Shown here one piece after another: positions 42,513 to 57,872 of a stretch of 64,000 nucleotides of DNA (position 1 is its first letter; every line of letters begins with the position of its first letter). The stretch comes from Patescibacteria group bacterium (GTDB lineage: Bacteria; Patescibacteriota; Minisyncoccia; Phycocordibacterales; UBA918), in the NCBI GenBank assembly GCA_019745315.1, contig JAIETH010000002.1, forward strand, positions 98,306 to 162,305. Direction: 5' to 3'. The notes beneath the pieces were generated by a model. The model had not been told where the DNA came from. It was given only the letters and a program-made list of their open reading frames with translations, and did no database searches. The translations under genes were made by a program, and so were the position numbers.

Positions 42513-43607
42513 TTATTTATTCATCGGCATTACAAGGTAGCGAATGGTGTTTTCCCGTACACTCTCCATAACCATAGGCCTTCCTACGCCCGCAAAATGC
42601 ATCACAACGCTTTCTCCAGGCATATGTGCGAGTGGATCACTTAAATACTTCTGATTGAAGCTGAGGGCTAACTCTTCTCCTTCTAGAGATGCTGGCACCC
42701 TGCCCTCTGTTTTCCCTGACTCGCCTCCATCACTCGAGACCACAAGAGTATTCTGATTGAGGGTTAACTTCACCTGTAGAAACTTGTTTGCAAATAAGTT
42801 TGTCATTTTAAGCGCATGCTCGAGATCAGCACTCAACAGCGTGACATGCGAAACAAACTCTTTTGGAATAATTTGCACATAATCAGGAAAAGATCCTTCT
42901 GTGAGTCGTGTTGTTATATATGTTCCGTCTTTAAAATAAAATGCCATTTGACCCTCCCCAACCACACAATCAGGGTCAGAGCCCATAACCTCAAGGACTC
43001 GAGCAATTTCAAGAGCGTTTTTCTGAGGAATGAGAAGTGGGTTTTCAAGAGTTATATTTGACTGAGAAACTGTTTTTTCCACCAAACGAAATGAGTCTGT
43101 CGCAACAAACGTAAGACTTCGTTCTTTCTTTTGAGCAACATATACACTCCCCAACTCTGGCTTAATCGTCGATTGGGATGCAGCGAAGGCTACAGTCTTT
43201 ATACCAAGAGCAAACAGTGCTCCATCAAGTCGTTCTTTTTTTCCTTGCAACTCTGGTATATGAGGAAACTCTTGTGGTGGAAATACGTTTACGGTAGTTT
43301 GTGAACCTCGAGAGTTTATAACTAAAACCTCTCCATCTGTCTTCAGTGTAATAACGTCATCCTGCATAAGAGAGATCGTTTGAAGGAGAAGTGAACTTGG
43401 AACAGCAACAGTCCCTTCCTCAGAAACAACACCAGAAACGAGTGAGGTAATACCTATCTCTAAATTAGTTCCCGAAAAGAGGGCGCCATTCTCCACTGTT
43501 GTTATAGAGACACATTGAAGTATTGGAAGCGTAGGATGTTTTGTTGCGACTCGAGCTATAAGCTCTAGCTTTTTCAACAAGTCATTCTTTTTAATTTCTA
43601 TGTGCAT
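42513..43607 (-). CDS. dnaN: DNA polymerase III beta sliding clamp
   Basis: 364 aa, three-domain clamp; MHIEIKKNDLLKKLELIARV N-terminus; dnaA is adjacent. Confidence 0.9.
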   Translation of the reverse strand: MHIEIKKNDLLKKLELIARVATKHPTLPILQCVSITTVENGALFSGTNLEIGITSLVSGVVSEEGTVAVPSSLLLQTISLMQDDVITLKTDGEVLVINSRGSQTTVNVFPPQEFPHIPELQGKKERLDGALFALGIKTVAFAASQSTIKPELGSVYVAQKKERSLTFVATDSFRLVEKTVSQSNITLENPLLIPQKNALEIARVLEVMGSDPDCVVGEGQMAFYFKDGTYITTRLTEGSFPDYVQIIPKEFVSHVTLLSADLEHALKMTNLFANKFLQVKLTLNQNTLVVSSDGGESGKTEGRVPASLEGEELALSFNQKYLSDPLAHMPGESVVMHFAGVGRPMVMESVRENTIRYLVMPMNK

Positions 43608-43855: not shown

Positions 43856-45253
43856 TCACTTTAAAAGAGCACGAATCTGACCAAGTTCTTCTTCGAGGAG
43901 TGTATCCCCTTTTAAATCTTTTTTAATCTTTTCGCATGAGTGGATTACTGTAGTGTGATCTCTTCCTCCCATCTTTTGTCCGATGGCTGGGTACGATATT
44001 TGGAAATCTTCTCGAAGGATATACATAATGAGTTGTCGAGGCTTCACCACCTCTTTCCGACGAGTCTTCTCATAAATACTTTCAGGTTCAATATCAAAGA
44101 AGCGTGCTATTTTTTCAACAACATCTGCTACTGCAAGAGACTTACGTGGACGAGTGCTGTTTTTTATAAGAGATTTTACTTCGTCTATCTCAAGTGCGCG
44201 TCCAGAGAGCTGAGACTGACACATGATGGTGTTAAGTGCTCCTTCGAGCTCACGAATATTTCCCTCAATTGTTTGAGCAAGGTGTTCGATAACGCTCTCG
44301 GTAAGCATTATGTTGTTTTGTGCCGCCTTTGCACGAAGTATTGCTATGCGTGACTCAAAATCAGTGCGAGGTATATCAACAATCATTCCCTGCGCAAATC
44401 GTGACTGAAGACGCTCTTCCATGTTGTGCATAAGGCGCGGATGAACATCAGATGAAAACACAATCTGCTTGTTATTGTCGTGAAGCGCATTAAATAGATG
44501 AAAGAGCTCTTCTTGAGTTTTCTCCTTATTAGAGAGAAACTGCACATCGTCCATGATGAGTGTGTCGTACTGGCGGTACTTGTCCTTAAAGTTATTGGCG
44601 GTTCCGTTTTGAAGAGAGTTCATATAATCCACAGTAAAACGCTCGCTCGTGACGTAAAAAACTTTTTTCCCTTGTTTTTTAAGGTGGTTACCAATCGCTT
44701 GGATCAAGTGTGTCTTTCCGTGACCTGTAGGTCCATATATAAACAGTGGGTTGTAGGCTATTCCAGGCTCACGAGCAACTGTCTGAGCAGCTGCATGGGC
44801 AAGTTGATTAAATGGACCAACAACAAAACTCTGAAAGGTATATTTCGGATTAAGATTGTCGCTCTTATTTATGTAGTACTCCTCAAGAGGGAGCGCCGCA
44901 TTCACTGTTTGAGGCTTTACCTTATCTATTTTCTTGTCAGTGCGTGCAACAACCGTATATTCGACATTCCGCACATGGTGTGAAAGGTCGCGCAGTGTTT
45001 TTAGTATGAGGCTATGGAATTTATCGGAAAGCCAGTCACGTACAAACACACTTGGTACACCGAGGGTTATGGTCCCATCTTCGAAAGACACTATATGTGT
45101 ATCTCGGAACCACGTTTTAAAGTTAGCAGTTGATATTGAGAGCTCAATATTGACCAACGAATTGTCCCACAGCTGTTTTACATCAAGATATTCAGTACGA
45201 AGTGCATGTATTGAGGTTTGAGAAGAAGCATTCATACAAAAAGTCTTAAGCAT
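43856..45253 (-). CDS. dnaA: Chromosomal replication initiator DnaA. Start taken at MLKTFCMNASS, which is preceded by GGAGAG.
   Basis: GPTGHGKTHL Walker A, AAA+ box VII, C-terminal DnaA-box-binding HTH (YPAIGQKMGGRDHTTVIHSCEKI). The 94 upstream codons of the listed ORF fall in the AT-rich origin spacer. Confidence 0.9.
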   Translation of the reverse strand: MLKTFCMNASSQTSIHALRTEYLDVKQLWDNSLVNIELSISTANFKTWFRDTHIVSFEDGTITLGVPSVFVRDWLSDKFHSLILKTLRDLSHHVRNVEYTVVARTDKKIDKVKPQTVNAALPLEEYYINKSDNLNPKYTFQSFVVGPFNQLAHAAAQTVAREPGIAYNPLFIYGPTGHGKTHLIQAIGNHLKKQGKKVFYVTSERFTVDYMNSLQNGTANNFKDKYRQYDTLIMDDVQFLSNKEKTQEELFHLFNALHDNNKQIVFSSDVHPRLMHNMEERLQSRFAQGMIVDIPRTDFESRIAILRAKAAQNNIMLTESVIEHLAQTIEGNIRELEGALNTIMCQSQLSGRALEIDEVKSLIKNSTRPRKSLAVADVVEKIARFFDIEPESIYEKTRRKEVVKPRQLIMYILREDFQISYPAIGQKMGGRDHTTVIHSCEKIKKDLKGDTLLEEELGQIRALLK

Positions 45254-45432
45254 TATACTCTCCACAGTCTGCATGTAAACAGCTGAGCGTAAAAAATACA
45301 AAACTAGTGTGAAATAACGATATCCCACACCCAAAATAGATGACTGTGTACAACTCTGTGTATAGCTGTATATAAAAAAGCTCGTCAAGTACGGTGGTTG
45401 AAATATGTTTGTGTATGGTGTATTGTGTGCGC

Positions 45433-45570
45433 ATGTCAAAAAGAACCTATCAGCCAAAGAAGCGCAAGCGTGCAACCACCCACGGTTTCTTGGCGCGCAC
45501 AAAAACAGCAGGAGGAAAGGCTGTGCTTCAGGCACGTCGAAGAAAGGGACGAGCTAAATTAGCTGTCTAA
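45433..45570 (+). CDS. rpmH: 50S ribosomal protein L34
   Basis: [45 protein letters not shown], 45 aa. Below the ORF-track length cutoff, so not listed there. Confidence 0.95.
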
Positions 45571-47958: not shown

Positions 47959-48612
47959 TTAAGGTACAAGACCTGTACATCTTCGACAAATACCTCCTGC
48001 AGCTCTACATTGCGGCACATTATTTTCCGCACAACAAAGTACTGTGTTGGTGTCGCATGTCCTACATTCAGGAGTTCCGTCTGGAAATCTTCTCCCTGTA
48101 AAGTTTAGATTGCTTCCTGTGCAACCAGCGACGTCGCTCGTGGTCGCTGTCCCCCCAGTAGTCGCTCCAGGGCTTTGTGTTGCAATCGAAACCGGAGGTG
48201 CACCACGTAACGGATCAAGTTTTATCTCTCCTGAAATAGTCTCCAAAATGAGTACCGTGGAAAGTATTAAGAGAAGCCCCGCAAGAGACGCAGTTATGGT
48301 TGCTTTTGCCTCCCCCATCCCCCCATGATTCCCAGCCGAAGAGAGGTATTTGAAACCAGCAAAGCTAATTTGGAATACTGCAGCAAGTGCACCAATGGTT
48401 ATGGCAAGTCGGTACCCAGCATTTAAGAGGTTTACGAGTCTATCCTCATCTCGTCCACCTATGTCGGTGAGTCCTGGGATACCAGCGAGAGGTTGGAATT
48501 CTTGAGCAAAGGTATGGGTTGGGGCTATATATACAGAAAGAAGGAGGATAGCGAGAATATAAAAATACAGAAAAAAGAAAAGTCCTACTGAAGCTTTTTT
48601 ATTTCTAACCAT
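47959..48612 (-). CDS. VirB2/TrbC-like pilin-family protein, paralog 1: a signal peptide, a two-transmembrane-helix pilin-like core, and a short Cys-rich C-terminal tail
   Basis: Core QEFQPLAGIPGLT...LAITIGALAAVFQISFAGFKYL...ATITASLAGLLLILSTVLILE; tail with CxxC pairs (CRTCDTNTVLCCAENNVPQCRAAGGICRRC). Confidence 0.45.
   Translation of the reverse strand: MVRNKKASVGLFFFLYFYILAILLLSVYIAPTHTFAQEFQPLAGIPGLTDIGGRDEDRLVNLLNAGYRLAITIGALAAVFQISFAGFKYLSSAGNHGGMGEAKATITASLAGLLLILSTVLILETISGEIKLDPLRGAPPVSIATQSPGATTGGTATTSDVAGCTGSNLNFTGRRFPDGTPECRTCDTNTVLCCAENNVPQCRAAGGICRRCTGLVP
48163..48531. repeat. 369-bp segment 100% identical to 49080-49448, the shared core of the two pilin-like genes
   Basis: Exact nucleotide identity checked by eye from ccccagtagtcgctccagggc... 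to ...caaaggtatgggttgg. Both flanks diverge. Confidence 0.9.
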
Positions 48613-48703: not shown

Positions 48704-49564
48704 TTACTGGGTTAGATAACAGGTGCCACCTCTGGGATCATACCCCTCTCTACATTCAGTTTCTATAGTTCCGTACGAGTACAAAAGACATCCTGCTTGC
48801 CCTCCTCCGGGGGGTTGTACGAATTGATACCCGGATTCGCACTGCGCATCTCCAGAAGGTTCTGTAAGTAGTGGTACGCATCCAGAGTTACCCCACTGCA
48901 CATTGAGACTGCCATCACATCCAACTTCTATATATATAGGCTCAGGCTCACGTTCAGTGCTGGTTTCTATTGGGGGAGTCGTGTTCGGGGTGCAATTTGT
49001 TGACGATCCTTGTGATGCTCCAGGTTGACAGACTCTGCCGATCTCAGGATTTCCTGTTCCGCCTGTCAGTGCTCCACTCCCCCCAGTAGTCGCTCCAGGG
49101 CTTTGTGTTGCAATCGAAACCGGAGGTGCACCACGTAACGGATCAAGTTTTATCTCTCCTGAAATAGTCTCCAAAATGAGTACCGTGGAAAGTATTAAGA
49201 GAAGCCCCGCAAGAGACGCAGTTATGGTTGCTTTTGCCTCCCCCATCCCCCCATGATTCCCAGCCGAAGAGAGGTATTTGAAACCAGCAAAGCTAATTTG
49301 GAATACTGCAGCAAGTGCACCAATGGTTATGGCAAGTCGGTACCCAGCATTTAAGAGGTTTACGAGTCTATCCTCATCTCGTCCACCTATGTCGGTGAGT
49401 CCTGGGATACCAGCGAGAGGTTGGAATTCTTGAGCAAAGGTATGGGTTGGTGTTCCGTGCAGAGAGAAAATAATATTCCCAAGAAGGATTGCGTGGGCAA
49501 GAAAGAACAATACTTTTGATCCTCGCATACTACTTAAAGTCCACCCTAAAGGTGTTTTCTGCAT
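48704..49564 (-). CDS. VirB2/TrbC-like pilin-family protein, paralog 2: a different signal peptide, an identical core, and a longer Cys-rich C-terminal domain
   Basis: 286 aa; C-terminal 130 aa has 8 Cys (VCQPG...NCTPN...GCDGS...GCVPL...CESGY...CLLYS...CREGY...CYLTQ). Confidence 0.45.
   Translation of the reverse strand: MQKTPLGWTLSSMRGSKVLFFLAHAILLGNIIFSLHGTPTHTFAQEFQPLAGIPGLTDIGGRDEDRLVNLLNAGYRLAITIGALAAVFQISFAGFKYLSSAGNHGGMGEAKATITASLAGLLLILSTVLILETISGEIKLDPLRGAPPVSIATQSPGATTGGSGALTGGTGNPEIGRVCQPGASQGSSTNCTPNTTPPIETSTEREPEPIYIEVGCDGSLNVQWGNSGCVPLLTEPSGDAQCESGYQFVQPPGGGQAGCLLYSYGTIETECREGYDPRGGTCYLTQ
49080..49448. repeat. Second copy of the 369-bp identical pilin-core segment
   Basis: see 48163-48531. 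Confidence 0.9.
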
Positions 49565-50941: not shown

Positions 50942-52756
50942 CTATTGAGTAGCGTTTAATTCCTCGCGGGCTTTTTTGATCTGCAAAAGTTGTGATGGAT
51001 CAGATGTTATGATCTGGTCTTCAGTATAGGACGCTATGATTTTAATAGCGACATGTTTAAGTCCCGCAAAGAAAATTCCTTCCCCTACTCCCGACTCGAG
51101 AAGAAGGAATTTTTCTTCGTCGGTGAGGTTAAATGCTTTTTGGAGACTATCAATCGTTGTTGGAGATTGCTTCATTAAGAGCTGTATGGAAGAGTTTGTG
51201 AGCATTGGAACTCCATATGGAGAGTTAAGAAAGTCGTTTACATCTTGAGTGATGGTTGCAAGTCCCAAATAGTACTTACGGCCACGTTTCGCAATACCAA
51301 AAAGGAATGACGCAGTATCTTCTGACTTCATCATCCACCACGCTTCATCTATCACAAGAAGTCGCTTCTTAAGTGTGCGGCGTACTGCGCTCCAGATATG
51401 GTGCGTAATCATGTACATAGCAATGGTTTTCAATTCCTCCTCCATGTCGCGAAGTGAAAACACGATAAAGTGCTCATTAATATCAACATTTGTTGGACGA
51501 TTCATGAAGCCTTCCCATGTACCTCGTGTGTATTTAGAGAGGCGCTGTACCAACGACTCGCTTCCCTCCATGCCAGAAAGTATCATTTCAAGATCTGAAA
51601 GAAGTGGTGGCTCCATGCCACTAAAGTCACTGTGCTGGGTTATGTCCTTAAGGGCATATGTCTCAGTGATAGCCCTATCGATGATTGCGTCCTCGTCAGG
51701 AGTGAGGCCGGAAAGCATAAGTCTAAAGAGACCCACAAGATTTATGATATGAGAGCGTAACACCTCCTCTGGTGTTTCGTCTGCAAGAAGTTCAGGCAGG
51801 TCAAAGGGGTTGATGTGGTGAGGTGACGAAAGTGAGATATTGAAGAAGCGCCCCCCTGTCGCTTCTGCGAGGTATTCGTATTCATGCTCAGGGTCTATGA
51901 CGATCACTTCCGTACCAAACATAAGCGAGCGAAGGATTTCGAGCTTTGCGGCGTACGACTTACCTGATCCAGACGTTGCAAATGTTACTGAGTTGTAGTT
52001 TTCAAGAGAGAATCTATCAAAGAGTACGAGAGAAGAGTTGTGTCTATTGATACCGTAGAGAATCCCTGTATCAGCGGTAAGGTCAAATGAGGTAAAGGGG
52101 AAAAAGCTTGAAAGAGGCTCCGAGTTGAACTTCGAGTTCACAGAAAGCTCGTCGTTTCCTATTGGTATAGACGAGCGAAACCCTTCTTCTTGTTGAAAGA
52201 GAGCTGGTTTAAGGTAGATCAGGCGTGAGTCAAGAATTGATCGAACATCAGACTCCGTCTTGTCCAACTCTTCTTCGTTCATTCCGTAGATGGTGATATA
52301 GAGACCTACATCAAAAAGCCTCTCTTCAGCTTGTTGGAGTTTATCGCGGAGAGCTTCAAGGTTTTGATACGCAGCTTCGAGCTGCGGATCTCGCACAAAC
52401 CCCTTCTCTTCCCTCGTGCTCATCTGGCTTTGAACCTCAGCAACCTTTTTTCTGAAGCTCTTAAGGACATCATTTGTATCCATTGGGTGCACAAAAATGG
52501 ATACATCAAAAACTTTTTCCAAGTTAAGTATTGGTTCAAGCCATCCCTCACTCAGATAGCGAGGATATGCAACAACAAAAAAAGATCGAGCAAGGCGGCC
52601 GCTGACATTGATCTGACGAGGTGTTACCCCTATCGCCGAGGGGGCTATAACATCCTTAAGGTCAAGCGAGCTGGCATCATAAATCTCCTGAGGGAGCGCT
52701 CCTTCAGCGTCTTGTCCTTTTTTCTTTTGTATAAAGTCAAATAATCCCATGCTCAC
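50942..52756 (-). CDS. VirB4/TrbE/CagE-family conjugal-transfer-type ATPase, C-terminal (ATPase) portion. It is separated from its N-terminal domain by a single in-frame TAA.
   Basis: Walker A TSGSGKSY, Walker B LLVIDEAW, VirB4-typical RKYYLGLATITQ; the listed start is a GTG. Confidence 0.8.
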   Translation of the reverse strand: MSMGLFDFIQKKKGQDAEGALPQEIYDASSLDLKDVIAPSAIGVTPRQINVSGRLARSFFVVAYPRYLSEGWLEPILNLEKVFDVSIFVHPMDTNDVLKSFRKKVAEVQSQMSTREEKGFVRDPQLEAAYQNLEALRDKLQQAEERLFDVGLYITIYGMNEEELDKTESDVRSILDSRLIYLKPALFQQEEGFRSSIPIGNDELSVNSKFNSEPLSSFFPFTSFDLTADTGILYGINRHNSSLVLFDRFSLENYNSVTFATSGSGKSYAAKLEILRSLMFGTEVIVIDPEHEYEYLAEATGGRFFNISLSSPHHINPFDLPELLADETPEEVLRSHIINLVGLFRLMLSGLTPDEDAIIDRAITETYALKDITQHSDFSGMEPPLLSDLEMILSGMEGSESLVQRLSKYTRGTWEGFMNRPTNVDINEHFIVFSLRDMEEELKTIAMYMITHHIWSAVRRTLKKRLLVIDEAWWMMKSEDTASFLFGIAKRGRKYYLGLATITQDVNDFLNSPYGVPMLTNSSIQLLMKQSPTTIDSLQKAFNLTDEEKFLLLESGVGEGIFFAGLKHVAIKIIASYTEDQIITSDPSQLLQIKKAREELNATQ

Positions 52757-52762
52757 TGTTTG

Positions 52763-53386
52763 TTATTGTGGCGGCAGTGCCTTCTTCCCTTCGTTAGGAT
52801 TAAATATGTGATAAAAGAGGTCAACAACTTCATTTGTTCCAAGGGTGACTGTTCGTACTCCAACGCGCGCAAGTCCCTGCTCCACCACTGCGATGCGTTG
52901 TTCGAGCTGAGAACGATCCTCCTCAAATGCATCGTCAGGCAAGACATTCTTTTTTTTGGAATTTCCAAAGAGTGACTTCAATCCTTTCGACACATCAACT
53001 TTTGCGGGAACATACGAAACAATGACAAAAAAGCTCTTTGTCATAATATCAGTATCATGAGCAAATGATCGAATAAAACCGATGTATTCTCGCAACTGTA
53101 CCTTCATGAGATCGTTCTTTTGTCCGGCTTCGCGCGAAGCAAGGAGTTCGAGATAGGGATTGATATCAAGCTCTCGTGATTGTACGTAGAATTGTACTGA
53201 AAAATCGAGGGTGTTGAGGAAGTTTTGAAATTGACTGAGTATCGCCTGTTGCTCATCACTTGATTTAAGCGCAAAGTTAATTGAAGAAGCCATAAGAACA
53301 GCACGCAGGCTCCCATCCTTAAGAACCACGACCCCGTCACGGATCTCCTCAAGTGGTACAAATGATTGGGTTGGGTCAGTCGCCAT
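52763..53386 (-). CDS. VirB4-family N-terminal domain, encoded as a separate ORF
   Basis: SFVPLEEIRDGVVVLKDGSLRAVLMASSINFALKSSDEQQAI is the characteristic VirB4/TraC N-terminus. It ends with TAA at 52763-52765, in the same frame as the downstream ATPase ORF. Confidence 0.7.
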   Translation of the reverse strand: MATDPTQSFVPLEEIRDGVVVLKDGSLRAVLMASSINFALKSSDEQQAILSQFQNFLNTLDFSVQFYVQSRELDINPYLELLASREAGQKNDLMKVQLREYIGFIRSFAHDTDIMTKSFFVIVSYVPAKVDVSKGLKSLFGNSKKKNVLPDDAFEEDRSQLEQRIAVVEQGLARVGVRTVTLGTNEVVDLFYHIFNPNEGKKALPPQ

Positions 53387-53389
53387 ATA

Positions 53390-53800
53390 CTATCGTTTGT
53401 TTTGTAGGGCATTAATTTCAAGCTTACGCGCCATAGATGCAAGGCTGCTTGAGCTCGGAGGAACATAGCTTTGTGTGGCTGCGCCCTCTTTCTTCACTAT
53501 CTTTTTACTCTCTTTTCTCCACAGGTACAGTTTTGAGTGCATGAGATATCCAACAAATGATTCGAGGGTATTCACAAAGGGGCGCTCATTGTATCTATAG
53601 AATGCGAGCGCAACGGCGAGTGCCGCTATAGGTGTTCCGAATATAATGACAAATATAAATGGCAAAAAAGTGTAGAGAATAAAGAGTGAGCCCGCTCCTC
53701 CCACAAGATAAATAAATTGCTTCCACGTAAAGGGGCCAAAAATTTTATCTTCAATCTCGATAAATTGAGGGACTTCAAAACGCATACACGTATTATACAT
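53390..53800 (-). CDS. PrgI/TcpE-like small membrane protein (VirB3 analogue of Gram-positive-type T4SS)
   Basis: EVPQFIEIEDKIFGPFTWKQFIYLVGGAG followed by two transmembrane segments. Confidence 0.55.
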   Translation of the reverse strand: MYNTCMRFEVPQFIEIEDKIFGPFTWKQFIYLVGGAGSLFILYTFLPFIFVIIFGTPIAALAVALAFYRYNERPFVNTLESFVGYLMHSKLYLWRKESKKIVKKEGAATQSYVPPSSSSLASMARKLEINALQNKR

Positions 53801-54380: not shown

Positions 54381-56288
54381 TTAATGATGGTCTCCACCCC
54401 CGCCACCATGTCCACCACCTCCGTGATCATCTCCGTGACCGCCGCCAGCATCAGGCTTGTGATCATCTTTTGGTTTTGATTCTCCACCCCCACCTCCTTT
54501 TTCCTTAGCTTTCTTTTCGGGTGGTTTATATTCTTCGCCCTTTTTAGCACTCTTTTTTTGCTTCTCAATATCATCTTTAATTGCTTTTTCAATAGCTCCC
54601 CCTTCTTTTTTATCATGCCCCGCTACGAGTCGACTGAACCAACTTCTGTCTTTTACTATCTGTGCGTATGAAGCTTGATTGGCGGTTTCTTTCTTTGCGA
54701 TTTCAGCCCGCTTGTCTGAAGAGCTTTCTTTATAATATTCCATCTCCATCTTTGCCTTCTCTGCCGCTTCTTTGTTTTTCTCTCTATTTGCTTCTTTGAG
54801 CTTTTCCTCTGCGGCATGAAGTGCGTCTGTGTCTTTTTTGAGAGCAGCTTTTTCAGCTTCTATTTCAGGAGTATCCTTCACATTAAGTGATCGAGCATAA
54901 TCCGCTTCGTCTTGTTTTTTACCTTTCAGCCAAGATTCGTAGTTTTCTTTTGAAGCTTTGCCTACGTCAAGATCCATTCCTTTTGTAAATTTACCGACGA
55001 GCCCATTAGCGCGAGCATCAAAAGAGCTTTTCTGTACCGATGTAATTCCTCCTGCGCCTACCCGAGCAAGTCCTCGGGTTATAGCCCAACTATTTTTGTT
55101 TGCTTGAACGCTCTTCAGGCCAGCAAGTCTTTTTTGAACAGCCTCACTATTGGCTGCTCGACCGATGGTCATTCTGCCCATATATCCGGTTGCTCCAAGA
55201 CTCGCTCCTACAGCTTTTCCTGCCCACCCCATCATTTTTGTGGTTTGAGACGCTCCTGCTGTGCTCATCTGTTTTGCCATTTTTGTTGTGCCTACTATCA
55301 GCACCATTGCAACAATGTAAAACATGAGAGTAGCGAGCGCAGCACTTTTGTCTCCCGGCAAGAAAAGTCCTCGTAGATTACCACTTTGTCCGTAGGGGGT
55401 GCCTTGAAGTATTAGCAAAGAAATATAGAGACCAAAAAGGTATATAGGGGCAAGAAATGCTTGGCTTGTGAGAGTAGACCACCACTGTTTTTTGTATTTA
55501 CCAAGCATAGGAACTTCACTTGGTAGAAATGCAATTGGAGACGTGATCATAAGTATAATAAGCATTGCAAATCGAGTGATGAGAAGAAAGGCCCCAAGTC
55601 CAAATGCTATTGCAAGAAGAAACATGAGGATACTACCTCCTACGGTGTATACAACTGCGTATGCGATACCTCCGCCATTTGGCTGCATAAATTGACTGAG
55701 CGCAGCTCTCTGCCCCGCACTATCTCCGCCTGCTTGAATAGACATGATGCCCATGCGAGCCATAAAAGCATCACTTATACCTCGCCCTTCTGCGCGACTC
55801 GCTGCATCAGATACCATTTTTTTATATACCGAGTCAGCAACAATATTAGAGACATCAATAATTGCTTTGGTAAAGAAGAGGCTAAAGTTTACGAGGAGCG
55901 CTGCGACAATAACTGAGGCGAGTCCTTTTTTAAGCCCCCCCATGCTGCCATGTACAATGGTCATAATACCTATGTATATAAGAGAGAAAACAAAAGTAAG
56001 GTTAACGATATCTCTAAACACAGACCATAATTGATCGATAGAAGATCCAAAGCCTTGCGTGCGAACCATTCCACCCATACCGATCACAAGTTGTGTTACG
56101 GCAAGGTTAAGGAGCCACCCCATAACACCCAAGAACCAGCCAAAAAGACTCAAGATTCCTACAAGAAGCCACATCACAACATCACCGACTGCGTCAGTGA
56201 TTCCCCAGAATGCAGAAGCTTCGTGGGGAATACCAAAAAGTCCAATGAGTACAAGTGCTGCTGTGCTGTAAAAAGTAACGCGTTTCAT
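54381..56288 (-). CDS. VirB6/TrbL-like polytopic membrane protein with a long Lys/Glu-rich and terminal Gly/His-rich cytoplasmic tail
   Basis: 635 aa; at least 7 transmembrane segments in the first 350 aa; tail ...GGGGGESKPKDDHKPDAGGGHGDDHGGGGHGGGGGDHH. Confidence 0.45.
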   Translation of the reverse strand: MKRVTFYSTAALVLIGLFGIPHEASAFWGITDAVGDVVMWLLVGILSLFGWFLGVMGWLLNLAVTQLVIGMGGMVRTQGFGSSIDQLWSVFRDIVNLTFVFSLIYIGIMTIVHGSMGGLKKGLASVIVAALLVNFSLFFTKAIIDVSNIVADSVYKKMVSDAASRAEGRGISDAFMARMGIMSIQAGGDSAGQRAALSQFMQPNGGGIAYAVVYTVGGSILMFLLAIAFGLGAFLLITRFAMLIILMITSPIAFLPSEVPMLGKYKKQWWSTLTSQAFLAPIYLFGLYISLLILQGTPYGQSGNLRGLFLPGDKSAALATLMFYIVAMVLIVGTTKMAKQMSTAGASQTTKMMGWAGKAVGASLGATGYMGRMTIGRAANSEAVQKRLAGLKSVQANKNSWAITRGLARVGAGGITSVQKSSFDARANGLVGKFTKGMDLDVGKASKENYESWLKGKKQDEADYARSLNVKDTPEIEAEKAALKKDTDALHAAEEKLKEANREKNKEAAEKAKMEMEYYKESSSDKRAEIAKKETANQASYAQIVKDRSWFSRLVAGHDKKEGGAIEKAIKDDIEKQKKSAKKGEEYKPPEKKAKEKGGGGGESKPKDDHKPDAGGGHGDDHGGGGHGGGGGDHH

Positions 56289-56294
56289 GTGTCT

Positions 56295-57872
56295 TTAGTC
56301 GCCACCTCCTCCACCATCATTATTGCCACGTGATCTTCGTGGGCACGGTTGAATCTCTGACGCCAATGCTTCAATGGTGGGTATTTTTTGATCCACCTCA
56401 AATTTGATGCCTGAATTTGTAATTGAAGTGTGTAGTGTTCCGGAAGACAGTATGGTTCCAAATTTCGTATACGACGAAAGCTTTTCTTCTTCAGATCCTT
56501 CATCTACCTTCTTTTGAAGCACCACAAGTTCCTCTACCGTTTTTTCTGATGCGACAATAGCAGAAAGAGCGATATCTTTTTCATCTTGGGCTTTTTTAAT
56601 CACCATATCATTTATGGTACACACTATAACTTCTTCTCCTTCAAGAATATCTTCTTCTGATGCAGCCGCTTCATCTTTTGCTTTTGTGATAATTGCGTCA
56701 GCAGCATTAACAATGCGTCGCTGTATTGCTTGGTATGTTTTTTCATCACTTATTGCAACAGCTATGGATCCTGCACCTGAGTAACCAACTGTGCCGCCGC
56801 TGCTGTACCCAGGATTACAGCCTTCAGTATTGATCTGTTCTATGTAGGTAAGTGAGTTACACAAATCGCTATTGCCCGCGCTTCCATCAAATCGCGAGGA
56901 GCTGTAGGTGTTGCTACTCCCCGTCAAAAGTCCTCGCGCCGCGGTAAGTCCTTGTTTAAGTGCTTGTCCAAGCAATGCTCCTATGATTTCGTTAATTTCG
57001 TCAGCCTCCAGAAGGGCTCGTTCTGTACCTTGGACAGTAAAGGAGAGTGACTGTGCGATAGTATCTCCCGGGGTTACGGTACGACATTTTTTAGGAGTTG
57101 CTTCGATCGGTGCGCCACTTTGTGTAGGTCCTTGTTGTGCGCCGCCAGTACATACTTCCCTACTTAAGAAGCCTCTTCCCCAATTTGCTTGGGTTTGGGC
57201 TCTTCCTTGGCTGCTAGAAATACTCGCTTGAAGTTGGATCGAACCAAAGACCCCCGACCCCATGGTTGAATTGATTGGACTTGTATTGATATCAAGCCAT
57301 GCTGGCCAGCCTCCAGCCATAAAGTTTCCTTGGATAAAGCGATCAACGTTTCCGACTGCGCCGCTCAATGTACACTGGACAGGTTTTCTGTTTCGTGAAT
57401 TTTGATATGCAAGATTGAGGCTAATACGAAGGTTGATAGGGCTACAAAGAAAGGCAAGATCGCTTCCATAAAGCACCTCTCCTGCTGCTTCGTCTGCAAT
57501 ATTGAGCATAAACGCCTGTGGATCCGTCATAAACATCGGACTTCCCTGGAATCCGCTATTGATCCAGCTTACTGTGCTTCGCGCCATCTCGGTTGCCACT
57601 CTTTTGGCAAGGAAGAATGCGACGCCATCAAGTGTCCACTCTTTTAAGTTCATTGCACTGAGCATTGAGGCGTTTATGCTTGTGCCGGCTGCGGTAATTG
57701 TATCTTGAAGCCATGACCCCCAGCTTTGAGGTGTGGCGTCAGCGACAACCTCTACAGGTATGGCGTGTGTTGTTTGAGGATTAATCGTTAATACTGAAGA
57801 GGCGAAAAGTATTGCCAAAAAGAAAGAGGCGAAAGTCTTGTTCTTTAAAAATAGAATATTTGAAAATTTCAT
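56295..57872 (-). CDS. Large secreted hypothetical protein of the T4SS-like cluster
   Basis: 525 aa with a signal peptide; 4-nt overlap with the upstream gene. Confidence 0.45.
   Translation of the reverse strand: MKFSNILFLKNKTFASFFLAILFASSVLTINPQTTHAIPVEVVADATPQSWGSWLQDTITAAGTSINASMLSAMNLKEWTLDGVAFFLAKRVATEMARSTVSWINSGFQGSPMFMTDPQAFMLNIADEAAGEVLYGSDLAFLCSPINLRISLNLAYQNSRNRKPVQCTLSGAVGNVDRFIQGNFMAGGWPAWLDINTSPINSTMGSGVFGSIQLQASISSSQGRAQTQANWGRGFLSREVCTGGAQQGPTQSGAPIEATPKKCRTVTPGDTIAQSLSFTVQGTERALLEADEINEIIGALLGQALKQGLTAARGLLTGSSNTYSSSRFDGSAGNSDLCNSLTYIEQINTEGCNPGYSSGGTVGYSGAGSIAVAISDEKTYQAIQRRIVNAADAIITKAKDEAAASEEDILEGEEVIVCTINDMVIKKAQDEKDIALSAIVASEKTVEELVVLQKKVDEGSEEEKLSSYTKFGTILSSGTLHTSITNSGIKFEVDQKIPTIEALASEIQPCPRRSRGNNDGGGGGD

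What the first reader, a model, noticed from the sequence alone, without database searches (positions are those of the whole stretch)
52745..52775. VirB4 ATPase interrupted by a single in-frame TAA between its N-terminal and ATPase domains
The VirB4 N-terminal domain ORF ends with TAA at 52763-52765. The ATPase ORF starts 9 nt downstream (GTG 52756, ATG 52750) in the same reading frame (...PPQ-TAA-T-V/M-S-M-G...). The cause could be a recent nonsense mutation (pseudogene), a sequencing error, a genuinely split two-subunit VirB4, or translational readthrough. The rest of the cluster looks intact, which argues against simple decay.
Basis: seen in the sequence. Interest (0 to 1): 0.55.

Follow-up and report, generated by a model that had tools for sequence, protein, structure and literature searches.

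The report
Normal two-gene VirB4 (TrsD-like plus ATPase)
The "stop codon inside VirB4" is the ordinary end of a small separate gene (a TrsD-like copy of the front part of VirB4) that sits just upstream of the VirB4 ATPase gene; this two-gene layout is conserved across Patescibacteria and already published, so nothing here is broken or recoded.

Summary
The sequence is as described. On the minus strand a 207-aa ORF ends with TAA at 52765-52763. A 604-aa ORF (GTG 52756; conserved ATG 52750) follows in the same frame. The "interrupted gene" reading does not hold.

- **Split is conserved.** All 120 listed homologues of the 207-aa protein (100 to 60% identity) are 203-225 aa long. Of the 150 best representatives at 50% clustering, 149 are short and one is a fused 797-aa form.
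- **Frame is chance.** All 78 related genomes in which both genes could be analysed keep a stop followed by a conserved ATG (M-G-L/I-F/L-D-F). They use all three stop codons. With the window counted as a 79th junction, the ATPase frame relative to the upstream gene is 0/+1/+2 in 19/25/35 cases.
- **Not a sequencing error.** The 131-nt junction, TAA included, is identical in two independent metagenome assemblies that differ from the window by SNPs elsewhere.
- **Position of the split.** It lies inside the VirB4 N-terminal domain, not at the border with the ATPase domain.
- **Already published.** Quiñonero-Coronel et al. 2025 (PMC12102498) describe exactly this: TrsD next to virB4, with PrgI/VirB3, near oriC.

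Pseudogene, sequencing error and readthrough are rejected. Verdict: already known, low interest.

The parts
52763..53386 (-). trsD-like gene: a stand-alone 207-aa protein homologous to the first ~200 residues of VirB4/TraC (stop codon included)
   Evidence: NCBIfam: VirB4_plasma positions 104-233, TrsD/TraD NF041427 positions 27-144/201 (E 3.6e-7), CD1110 2-102, VirB4_CagE 18-178. Pfam TraC_F_IV positions 18-174. Precomputed PF26593 TraC-like. AlphaFold model pLDDT 77; its top 14 PDB fold matches are all TrwK/VirB4 chains of R388.
52763..52765 (-). TAA stop codon of the trsD-like gene: a genuine gene end, not an interruption
   Evidence: A stop at the equivalent position occurs in all 78 related loci analysed (with the window as a 79th junction: TAA 54, TAG 15, TGA 10). 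The junction is identical in two independent ENA assemblies.
52751..52762 (-). 12-nt intergenic spacer (caaacagtgagc), with no well-spaced Shine-Dalgarno sequence; contains the mechanical GTG start at 52756
   Evidence: Spacer sequence and length are not conserved in relatives (-4 to 18 nt in 70 of 79 junctions, up to 397 nt).
50942..52750 (-). virB4 gene proper: 602 aa from ATG 52750, comprising the second half of the VirB4 N-terminal domain (residues ~1-225) plus the C-terminal ATPase domain (Walker A GSGKS, Walker B LLVIDEAW)
   Evidence: NCBIfam conju_CD1110 at 372 bits (cutoff 325), positions 182-733/752. Pfam P-loop_TraG, AAA_10, DUF87. PDB 4AG5 VirB4 C-terminal domain aligns to residues 227-583, E 1.3e-39. 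The start ATG is conserved as M-G-[LI]-[FL]-D-F.
53390..53800 (-). PrgI (VirB3-like) membrane protein gene, ending 3 nt before the trsD-like start
   Evidence: Pfam PrgI PF12666, E 5.6e-11, 43.3 bits (cutoff 27). The order PrgI, TrsD-like, ATPase is also seen in two ENA contigs and on Geobacillus plasmid pGspE55-1.
47959..58771 (-). Tightly packed minus-strand cluster (T4SS operon). Genes: 300-aa, 525-aa, 635-aa polytopic membrane protein (possibly VirB6-like, unverified), 175-aa, PrgI, TrsD-like, VirB4, 144-aa membrane protein, 324-aa, and two pilin-like genes
   Evidence: ORF list: gene gaps or overlaps of -35 to +32 nt within the cluster, apart from a 91-nt gap before the last pilin-like gene (48704 to 48612). 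A weak T4SS_pilin hit for 48704..49564 (E 0.002, below cutoff). No family hits for the other genes.

Best explanation
These are two separate, intact, co-transcribed genes of the chromosomal type IV secretion system of a Patescibacterium. The first is a trsD-like gene (207 aa, corresponding to the first half of the VirB4 N-terminal domain). The second is virB4 (602 aa, the second half of the N-terminal domain plus the ATPase domain). The TAA is the normal stop of the first gene. The ATPase is translated on its own from the conserved ATG at 52750, 12 nt downstream. That the two share a reading frame in this genome is coincidence. What is shown: the split, its conservation, the conserved start codon and the homology of each piece. 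What is inferred: (a) virB4 translation is coupled to termination of trsD-like translation, because the spacer is very short, some relatives have ATGA overlaps and there is no well-placed Shine-Dalgarno sequence; (b) the two proteins assemble non-covalently to rebuild a complete VirB4 N-terminal domain, which in solved T4SS structures anchors the ATPase to VirB3 at the membrane (own knowledge of the R388 structures).
For: (1) 5797 homologues of the 207-aa protein were found, and the best 120 (100 to 60% identity) are all 203-225 aa. (2) An exhaustive search of 1.84 billion representatives found 149 of the best 150 (down to ~35% identity) to be 146-443 aa; only P0199 is a 797-aa fusion. P0199 aligns to both pieces, at 46% and 56% identity, so the two genes together equal one VirB4. 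(3) Of 80 species-level genome loci, all 78 in which both genes could be analysed have a stop followed by a conserved ATG. With the window counted as a 79th junction: stop codons TAA 54, TAG 15, TGA 10; frame offsets 0/+1/+2 = 19/25/35; spacers -4 to 18 nt in 70 of 79; four ATGA overlaps; in-frame double stops in L003 and L055. (4) The 131-nt junction is identical in two independent ENA assemblies that carry 12/2445 and 4/1163 SNPs relative to the window, and both have the genes called separately as 207 + 602 aa. (5) Family and fold assignments. (6) Published description: TrsD, a remote homologue of the VirB4 N-terminus, is the most abundant T4SS component in Patescibacteria. It is usually adjacent to virB4, the locus often lies near oriC, and the gene is essential in Ca. 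Southlakia epibionticum ML1 (PMC12102498). Here dnaA, dnaN, rnpA and yidC lie 2-10 kb away. (7) The same PrgI / TrsD-like / ATPase order occurs on a Geobacillus plasmid, where the two genes overlap in different frames.
Against: No expression or protein data exist for this organism, so separate translation and physical association of the two products are inferred. The score against the curated NCBIfam TrsD/TraD model is only 30 bits (cutoff 200), so strict membership of the staphylococcal TrsD subfamily is not met. One fused relative exists (P0199), so fusion is tolerated.
Confidence: 0.94

Rival explanations
1. Programmed or leaky TAA readthrough produces a full-length fused VirB4 from the two in-frame ORFs.
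For: In this genome the ORFs are in frame, with only 4 sense codons between the stop and the ATG. A naturally fused homologue exists (P0199).
Against: The in-frame relation is not conserved: 19 of 79 junctions, the least common of the three frames. Relatives include ATGA overlaps, spacers up to 397 nt, all three stop codons and tandem in-frame stops (L003 TGA-TAA, L055 TAA-TAA). The spacer has no conserved sequence or context. A conserved ATG start makes readthrough unnecessary.
Confidence: 0.02
2. Recent nonsense mutation: VirB4 is a pseudogene in this lineage.
For: None beyond the in-frame stop itself.
Against: The stop lies at the same boundary in all 78 related genomes analysed, and in 149 of 150 representatives down to ~35% identity. 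Both pieces are strongly conserved (64% mean column identity in A1; the ATPase motifs are intact). The downstream gene has its own conserved start codon.
Confidence: 0.01
3. Sequencing or assembly error created the TAA.
For: The window comes from a metagenome-type assembly, where single-base errors are possible.
Against: The exact 131-nt junction recurs in two independent assemblies from different samples that differ from the window elsewhere. The boundary is also conserved phylum-wide.
Confidence: 0.01
4. Stop-codon reassignment: TAA is read as an amino acid in this organism.
For: Some Patescibacteria lineages (Gracilibacteria, Absconditabacteria) use an altered genetic code, though that change affects UGA (own knowledge).
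Against: Homologues end at this same boundary with TAA, TAG or TGA interchangeably, and their proteins have the same length. Table-11 ORFs across the window give full-length DnaA, DnaN, YidC, RnpA and VirB4 domain matches.
Confidence: 0.005

Closest known systems
Patescibacteria (CPR) chromosomal T4SS as described by Quiñonero-Coronel et al. 2025 (PMC12102498) and, as cited there, studied genetically in Ca. Southlakia epibionticum ML1 (Wang et al. 2023)
   Same: Same components and layout: PrgI/VirB3, then TrsD homologue, then VirB4, with pilin-like genes nearby and the locus close to dnaA/oriC. The paper reports 2,272 TrsD homologues, 1,664 of them next to VirB4, and essentiality in strain ML1.
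   Different: No material difference. This window is one more instance. The in-frame relation of the two genes here is incidental.
TrsD + TrsE of staphylococcal conjugative plasmid pGO1 (MPF-FATA subclass); NCBIfam NF041427 TrsD/TraD
   Same: A stand-alone protein of about 200 aa with remote homology to the VirB4 N-terminus (PMC12102498). The window protein matches model positions 27-144/201, E 3.6e-7. TrsD lying directly upstream of TrsE in pGO1 is own knowledge and was not checked here.
   Different: Similarity is weak (30 bits against a cutoff of 200). The staphylococcal system is a plasmid conjugation system, whereas this one is a chromosomal and apparently housekeeping T4SS. [quoted passage not shown]
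Full-length VirB4 ATPases (TrwK of R388, PDB 7O41/8RTD; CD1110-type VirB4, NF045971, 752 positions)
   Same: The two window proteins are collinear with a single VirB4: the 207-aa piece matches model positions 2-102 and the 604-aa piece positions 182-733. The fold of the 207-aa piece matches TrwK chains. The ATPase domain matches 4AG5 and TrwK residues 446-741.
   Different: The polypeptide is split about halfway through the N-terminal domain. Fused forms are very rare in this clade (1 of 150 representatives).
Firmicutes plasmid T4SS clusters such as Geobacillus subterraneus pGspE55-1
   Same: Gene order is PrgI family protein, then a hypothetical protein containing the TrsD-like region (30% identity), then a DUF87 ATPase.
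   Different: The middle protein is longer (318 aa). The two genes overlap by 14 nt in different frames. The cluster is on a plasmid.

Membership tests
VirB4 family ATPase (CD1110-type, NF045971) | Score above the curated cutoff of the family model | tested here: met
   The 604-aa protein scores 372.1 bits against a cutoff of 325, over positions 182-733/752.
VirB4 family ATPase (CD1110-type, NF045971) | Walker A and Walker B NTP-binding motifs and a VirB4 C-terminal-domain fold | tested here: met
   GSGKS and LLVIDEAW are present in the translation. 4AG5 VirB4 C-terminal domain, E 1.3e-39, aligns to residues 227-583.
VirB4 family ATPase (CD1110-type, NF045971) | N-terminal domain and ATPase domain on a single polypeptide | tested here: not met
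   Model positions 2-102 are on the separate 207-aa protein. The split is conserved.
TrsD/TraD conjugative transfer protein (NCBIfam NF041427; TrsD of pGO1) | Score above the curated subfamily cutoff | tested here: not met
   30.2 bits against a cutoff of 200; E 3.6e-7, positions 27-144/201. Homologous, but not a strict subfamily member.
TrsD-like / TraC-like N-terminal VirB4 homologue of Patescibacteria (PF26593; 'TrsD' of PMC12102498) | Stand-alone protein of about 200 aa homologous to the VirB4 N-terminus | tested here: met
   The source databases' precomputed Pfam hit PF26593 TraC-like is attached to this exact protein and to all listed homologues. Profile matches to VirB4 N-termini. Fold match to TrwK.
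TrsD-like / TraC-like N-terminal VirB4 homologue of Patescibacteria (PF26593; 'TrsD' of PMC12102498) | Encoded next to virB4 (here immediately upstream), with PrgI/VirB3 in the cluster | tested here: met
.
Patescibacteria T4SS locus (PMC12102498) | Location near the replication origin | tested here: met
   DnaA (43856..45535), DnaN (42513..43607), RnpA and YidC were identified by Pfam 2-10 kb from the cluster.
Patescibacteria T4SS locus (PMC12102498) | VirB6 and VirB2-like pilin genes in the cluster | tested here: inconclusive
   T4SS_pilin reaches only E 0.002 and 18.6 bits (cutoff 26.6) for 48704..49564. The 635-aa polytopic protein has no family hit.
Programmed stop-codon readthrough | Conserved in-frame relation of the two ORFs and a conserved stop context in relatives | tested here: not met
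   Frame offsets 19/25/35; all three stop codons; variable spacers; overlaps and double stops.
Pseudogene by nonsense mutation | Relatives carry an uninterrupted gene, and the stop is lineage-specific | tested here: not met
   All 78 related loci analysed are split, and 149 of 150 representatives are short.

The most novel reading that the evidence does not exclude
In the roughly one quarter of Patescibacteria genomes where the trsD-like and virB4 genes happen to be in frame with a short spacer, a low level of stop-codon readthrough might yield a minor fused full-length VirB4 that is incorporated into the machine. More broadly, splitting the VirB4 N-terminal domain into a separate subunit might allow a stoichiometry or assembly order different from that of single-chain VirB4. 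The rare natural fusion (P0199) would be a handle for testing this.
Probability: 0.03. Interest if true: 0.35.

Novelty: already known. Interest (0 to 1): 0.08.

Why it matters
It matters mainly for annotation. Pipelines and human readers should not flag this boundary as a pseudogene, frameshift or recoding site. The two genes should be named TrsD-like (VirB4 N-terminal homologue) and VirB4. The biological question still open in the literature is what the separate N-terminal piece does in the Patescibacteria T4SS. That system is reported to be essential for the epibiotic lifestyle (PMC12102498). This window adds no new information on that beyond one more example.

Tried and rejected
- A sequence search of the 207-aa protein against PDB chains found nothing at E <= 1. 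The link to VirB4 structure came only from the fold search and from profile models.
- The main text of Guglielmini et al. 2014 (PMC4027160) does not contain the string 'TrsD'. The statement that TrsD is remotely homologous to the VirB4 N-terminus is therefore cited from PMC12102498, not verified in the original.
- The FEMS 2025 T4SS review (PMC12857230) discusses the Patescibacteria T4SS but does not mention TrsD.
- No structure prediction of the complex or of a concatenated chain was run. Paired alignments would have had to be built from locus translations, which the structure tool does not accept.
- The hypotheses considered and rejected are pseudogene, sequencing error, readthrough and TAA reassignment (see the rival explanations).

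Full report
**1. Observation**

On the minus strand, ORF 53386..52763 (207 aa) ends ...ALPPQ-TAA, with the TAA at 52765-52763. ORF 52756..50942 follows in the same reading frame. It is 604 aa from GTG 52756, and there is an ATG at 52750. Otherwise the coordinates are right.

**2. What the two ORFs are**

- **The 207-aa protein** matches only the N-terminal ends of VirB4-type models: VirB4_plasma positions 104-233, CD1110 2-102 and VirB4_CagE 18-178. It also matches the stand-alone TrsD/TraD family (NF041427, positions 27-144 of 201, E 3.6e-7) and Pfam TraC_F_IV positions 18-174.
- **The 604-aa protein** passes the curated cutoff of the CD1110-type VirB4 model (372 bits against 325), covering positions 182-733 of 752. 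It carries Walker A (GSGKS) and Walker B (LLVIDEAW) motifs.
- **Position of the split.** The solved C-terminal ATPase domain of VirB4 (4AG5) aligns to residues 227-583 of the downstream protein. TraC_F_IV positions 281-356 fall within its residues 103-182. The gene boundary therefore lies about halfway through the VirB4 N-terminal domain, not at the junction between the N-terminal and ATPase domains.
- **Fold.** An AlphaFold model of the 207-aa protein (pLDDT 77) has TrwK/VirB4 chains of the R388 T4SS as its top 14 PDB matches (probability >= 0.97, TM 0.43-0.51 on the query).
- **Upstream gene.** Ending 3 nt before the 207-aa ORF is a PrgI (VirB3-like) gene.

**3. Is the split conserved?**

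Yes.

- The 207-aa protein has 5797 homologues, and the best 120 (100 to 60% identity) are all 203-225 aa long.
- An exhaustive HMMER scan of 1.84 billion representatives gave 2460 hits. Of the best 150 (down to about 35% identity), 149 are 146-443 aa. One, P0199, is 797 aa. P0199 is a true fusion: its residues 7-210 match the 207-aa piece at 46% identity, and its residues 230-796 match the ATPase piece at 56%. So the two genes together correspond to one VirB4, but the fused state is the rare exception in this clade.

**4. Junction anatomy in relatives**

I fetched 80 species-level genome loci and analysed each junction. All 78 loci in which both genes could be analysed have a stop codon followed by a conserved ATG encoding M-G-[LI]-[FL]-D-F. 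That ATG aligns with window ATG 52750, so this is the likely start rather than GTG 52756. The counts below include the window itself as a 79th junction.

| Feature | Result |
|---|---|
| Stop codon | TAA 54, TAG 15, TGA 10 |
| Frame of ATPase ORF relative to upstream ORF | 0: 19; +1: 25; +2: 35 (chi-square against uniform p = 0.084) |
| Spacer length | -4 to 18 nt in 70 of 79; 43 to 397 nt in the other nine |
| ATGA overlaps | 4 loci |
| Tandem in-frame stops | L003 (TGA-TAA), L055 (TAA-TAA) |

In-frame is the rarest class. Spacer sequence is not conserved. This pattern is what independent initiation at a conserved start predicts. It is incompatible with a conserved readthrough mechanism. The in-frame relation in this window is coincidence.

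**5. Not an error**

The exact 207-aa protein is encoded on two further contigs from different ENA assemblies (ERZ27249650 and ERZ27249646). In both, the downstream gene is called separately at 602 aa. Their 131-nt junction, TAA included, is identical to the window. They differ from the window by 12/2445 and 4/1163 nt elsewhere, so they are independent observations of related strains.

**6. Mechanism**

- **Shown:** there are two genes with a conserved stop and a conserved start.
- **Inferred, translation:** virB4 translation is probably coupled to termination of the trsD-like gene. Spacers are very short, some relatives have ATGA overlaps, and the 12-nt spacer caaacagtgagc has no well-placed Shine-Dalgarno sequence.
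- **Inferred, assembly:** the two proteins probably associate to rebuild a complete VirB4 N-terminal domain. In the R388 structures that domain contacts VirB3 at the membrane (own knowledge). The conserved gene order PrgI, TrsD-like, VirB4 fits this.

**7. Comparison with what is known**

Quiñonero-Coronel et al. 2025 (PMC12102498) report the following:

- It is the most abundant T4SS component recovered in Patescibacteria: 2,272 homologues, 1,664 of them associated with VirB4.
- It is otherwise known only from the pGO1-type MPF-FATA subclass.
- It is listed as essential in Ca. Southlakia epibionticum ML1.
- The locus often lies near the origin of replication.

In this window DnaA, DnaN, RnpA and YidC lie 2-10 kb from the cluster, and NCBI names the identical protein as from a 'Patescibacteria group bacterium'. 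A Firmicutes plasmid, Geobacillus pGspE55-1, shows the same order: PrgI, a TrsD-like protein of 318 aa, then a DUF87 ATPase. There the two genes overlap by 14 nt in different frames. Strict membership of the NCBIfam TrsD/TraD subfamily is not met (30 bits against 200). Membership of the broader TraC-like / TrsD-like family (PF26593, precomputed in the source databases) is met.

**8. Verdict**

It is an ordinary, already described gene boundary. Pseudogene, sequencing error, readthrough and codon reassignment are all rejected. Novelty: already known. Interest: low.

Noticed in passing
window 48150-48522 and 49078-49450 (minus-strand genes 47959..48612 and 48704..49564): Two adjacent pilin-like genes share a 373-nt block that is 100% identical, encoding the hydrophobic core AQEFQPLAG...ATTGG. 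Similarity drops abruptly to background on both sides, and the C-terminal Cys-rich tails are entirely different. This could be recent gene conversion or a cassette-like variation of T4SS pilin tips, or it could be a MAG assembly artefact. The literature notes several sequence-divergent VirB2-like pilins in the Southlakia locus.
   Followed up: partly
window 43856-45535 (-): The mechanical DnaA ORF (559 aa, GTG start) has about 120 residues before the DnaA_N domain begins. The real start is probably an internal ATG, so the upstream part may be oriC or promoter DNA rather than coding sequence. The dnaA, dnaN, rnpA and yidC genes lie together, marking the replication origin region next to the T4SS cluster.
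   Followed up: no
window 54381-56288 (-) and 56295-57872 (-): The 635-aa polytopic membrane protein (a possible VirB6 analogue with no family hit) ends in a long charged tail rich in Lys and Glu, followed by a Gly/His/Asp-rich tip (...GGGHGDDHGGGGHGGGGGDHH). The 525-aa protein upstream also ends in a Gly run (NNDGGGGGD). Neither has a Pfam or NCBIfam match.
   Followed up: no
P0199 (797 aa; representative library): This is the one naturally fused TrsD-like + VirB4 protein among the 150 best representatives (46% and 56% identity to the two window proteins). I did not check whether it is a real fusion or a gene-calling or sequencing artefact in its source contig.
   Followed up: partly
L070 4624-5020, L049, L029, L022: A few relatives have long spacers (76-397 nt) between the trsD-like gene and virB4. 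L049's spacer contains a short tandem repeat (ttattcg repeated). What fills these spacers was not examined.
   Followed up: no
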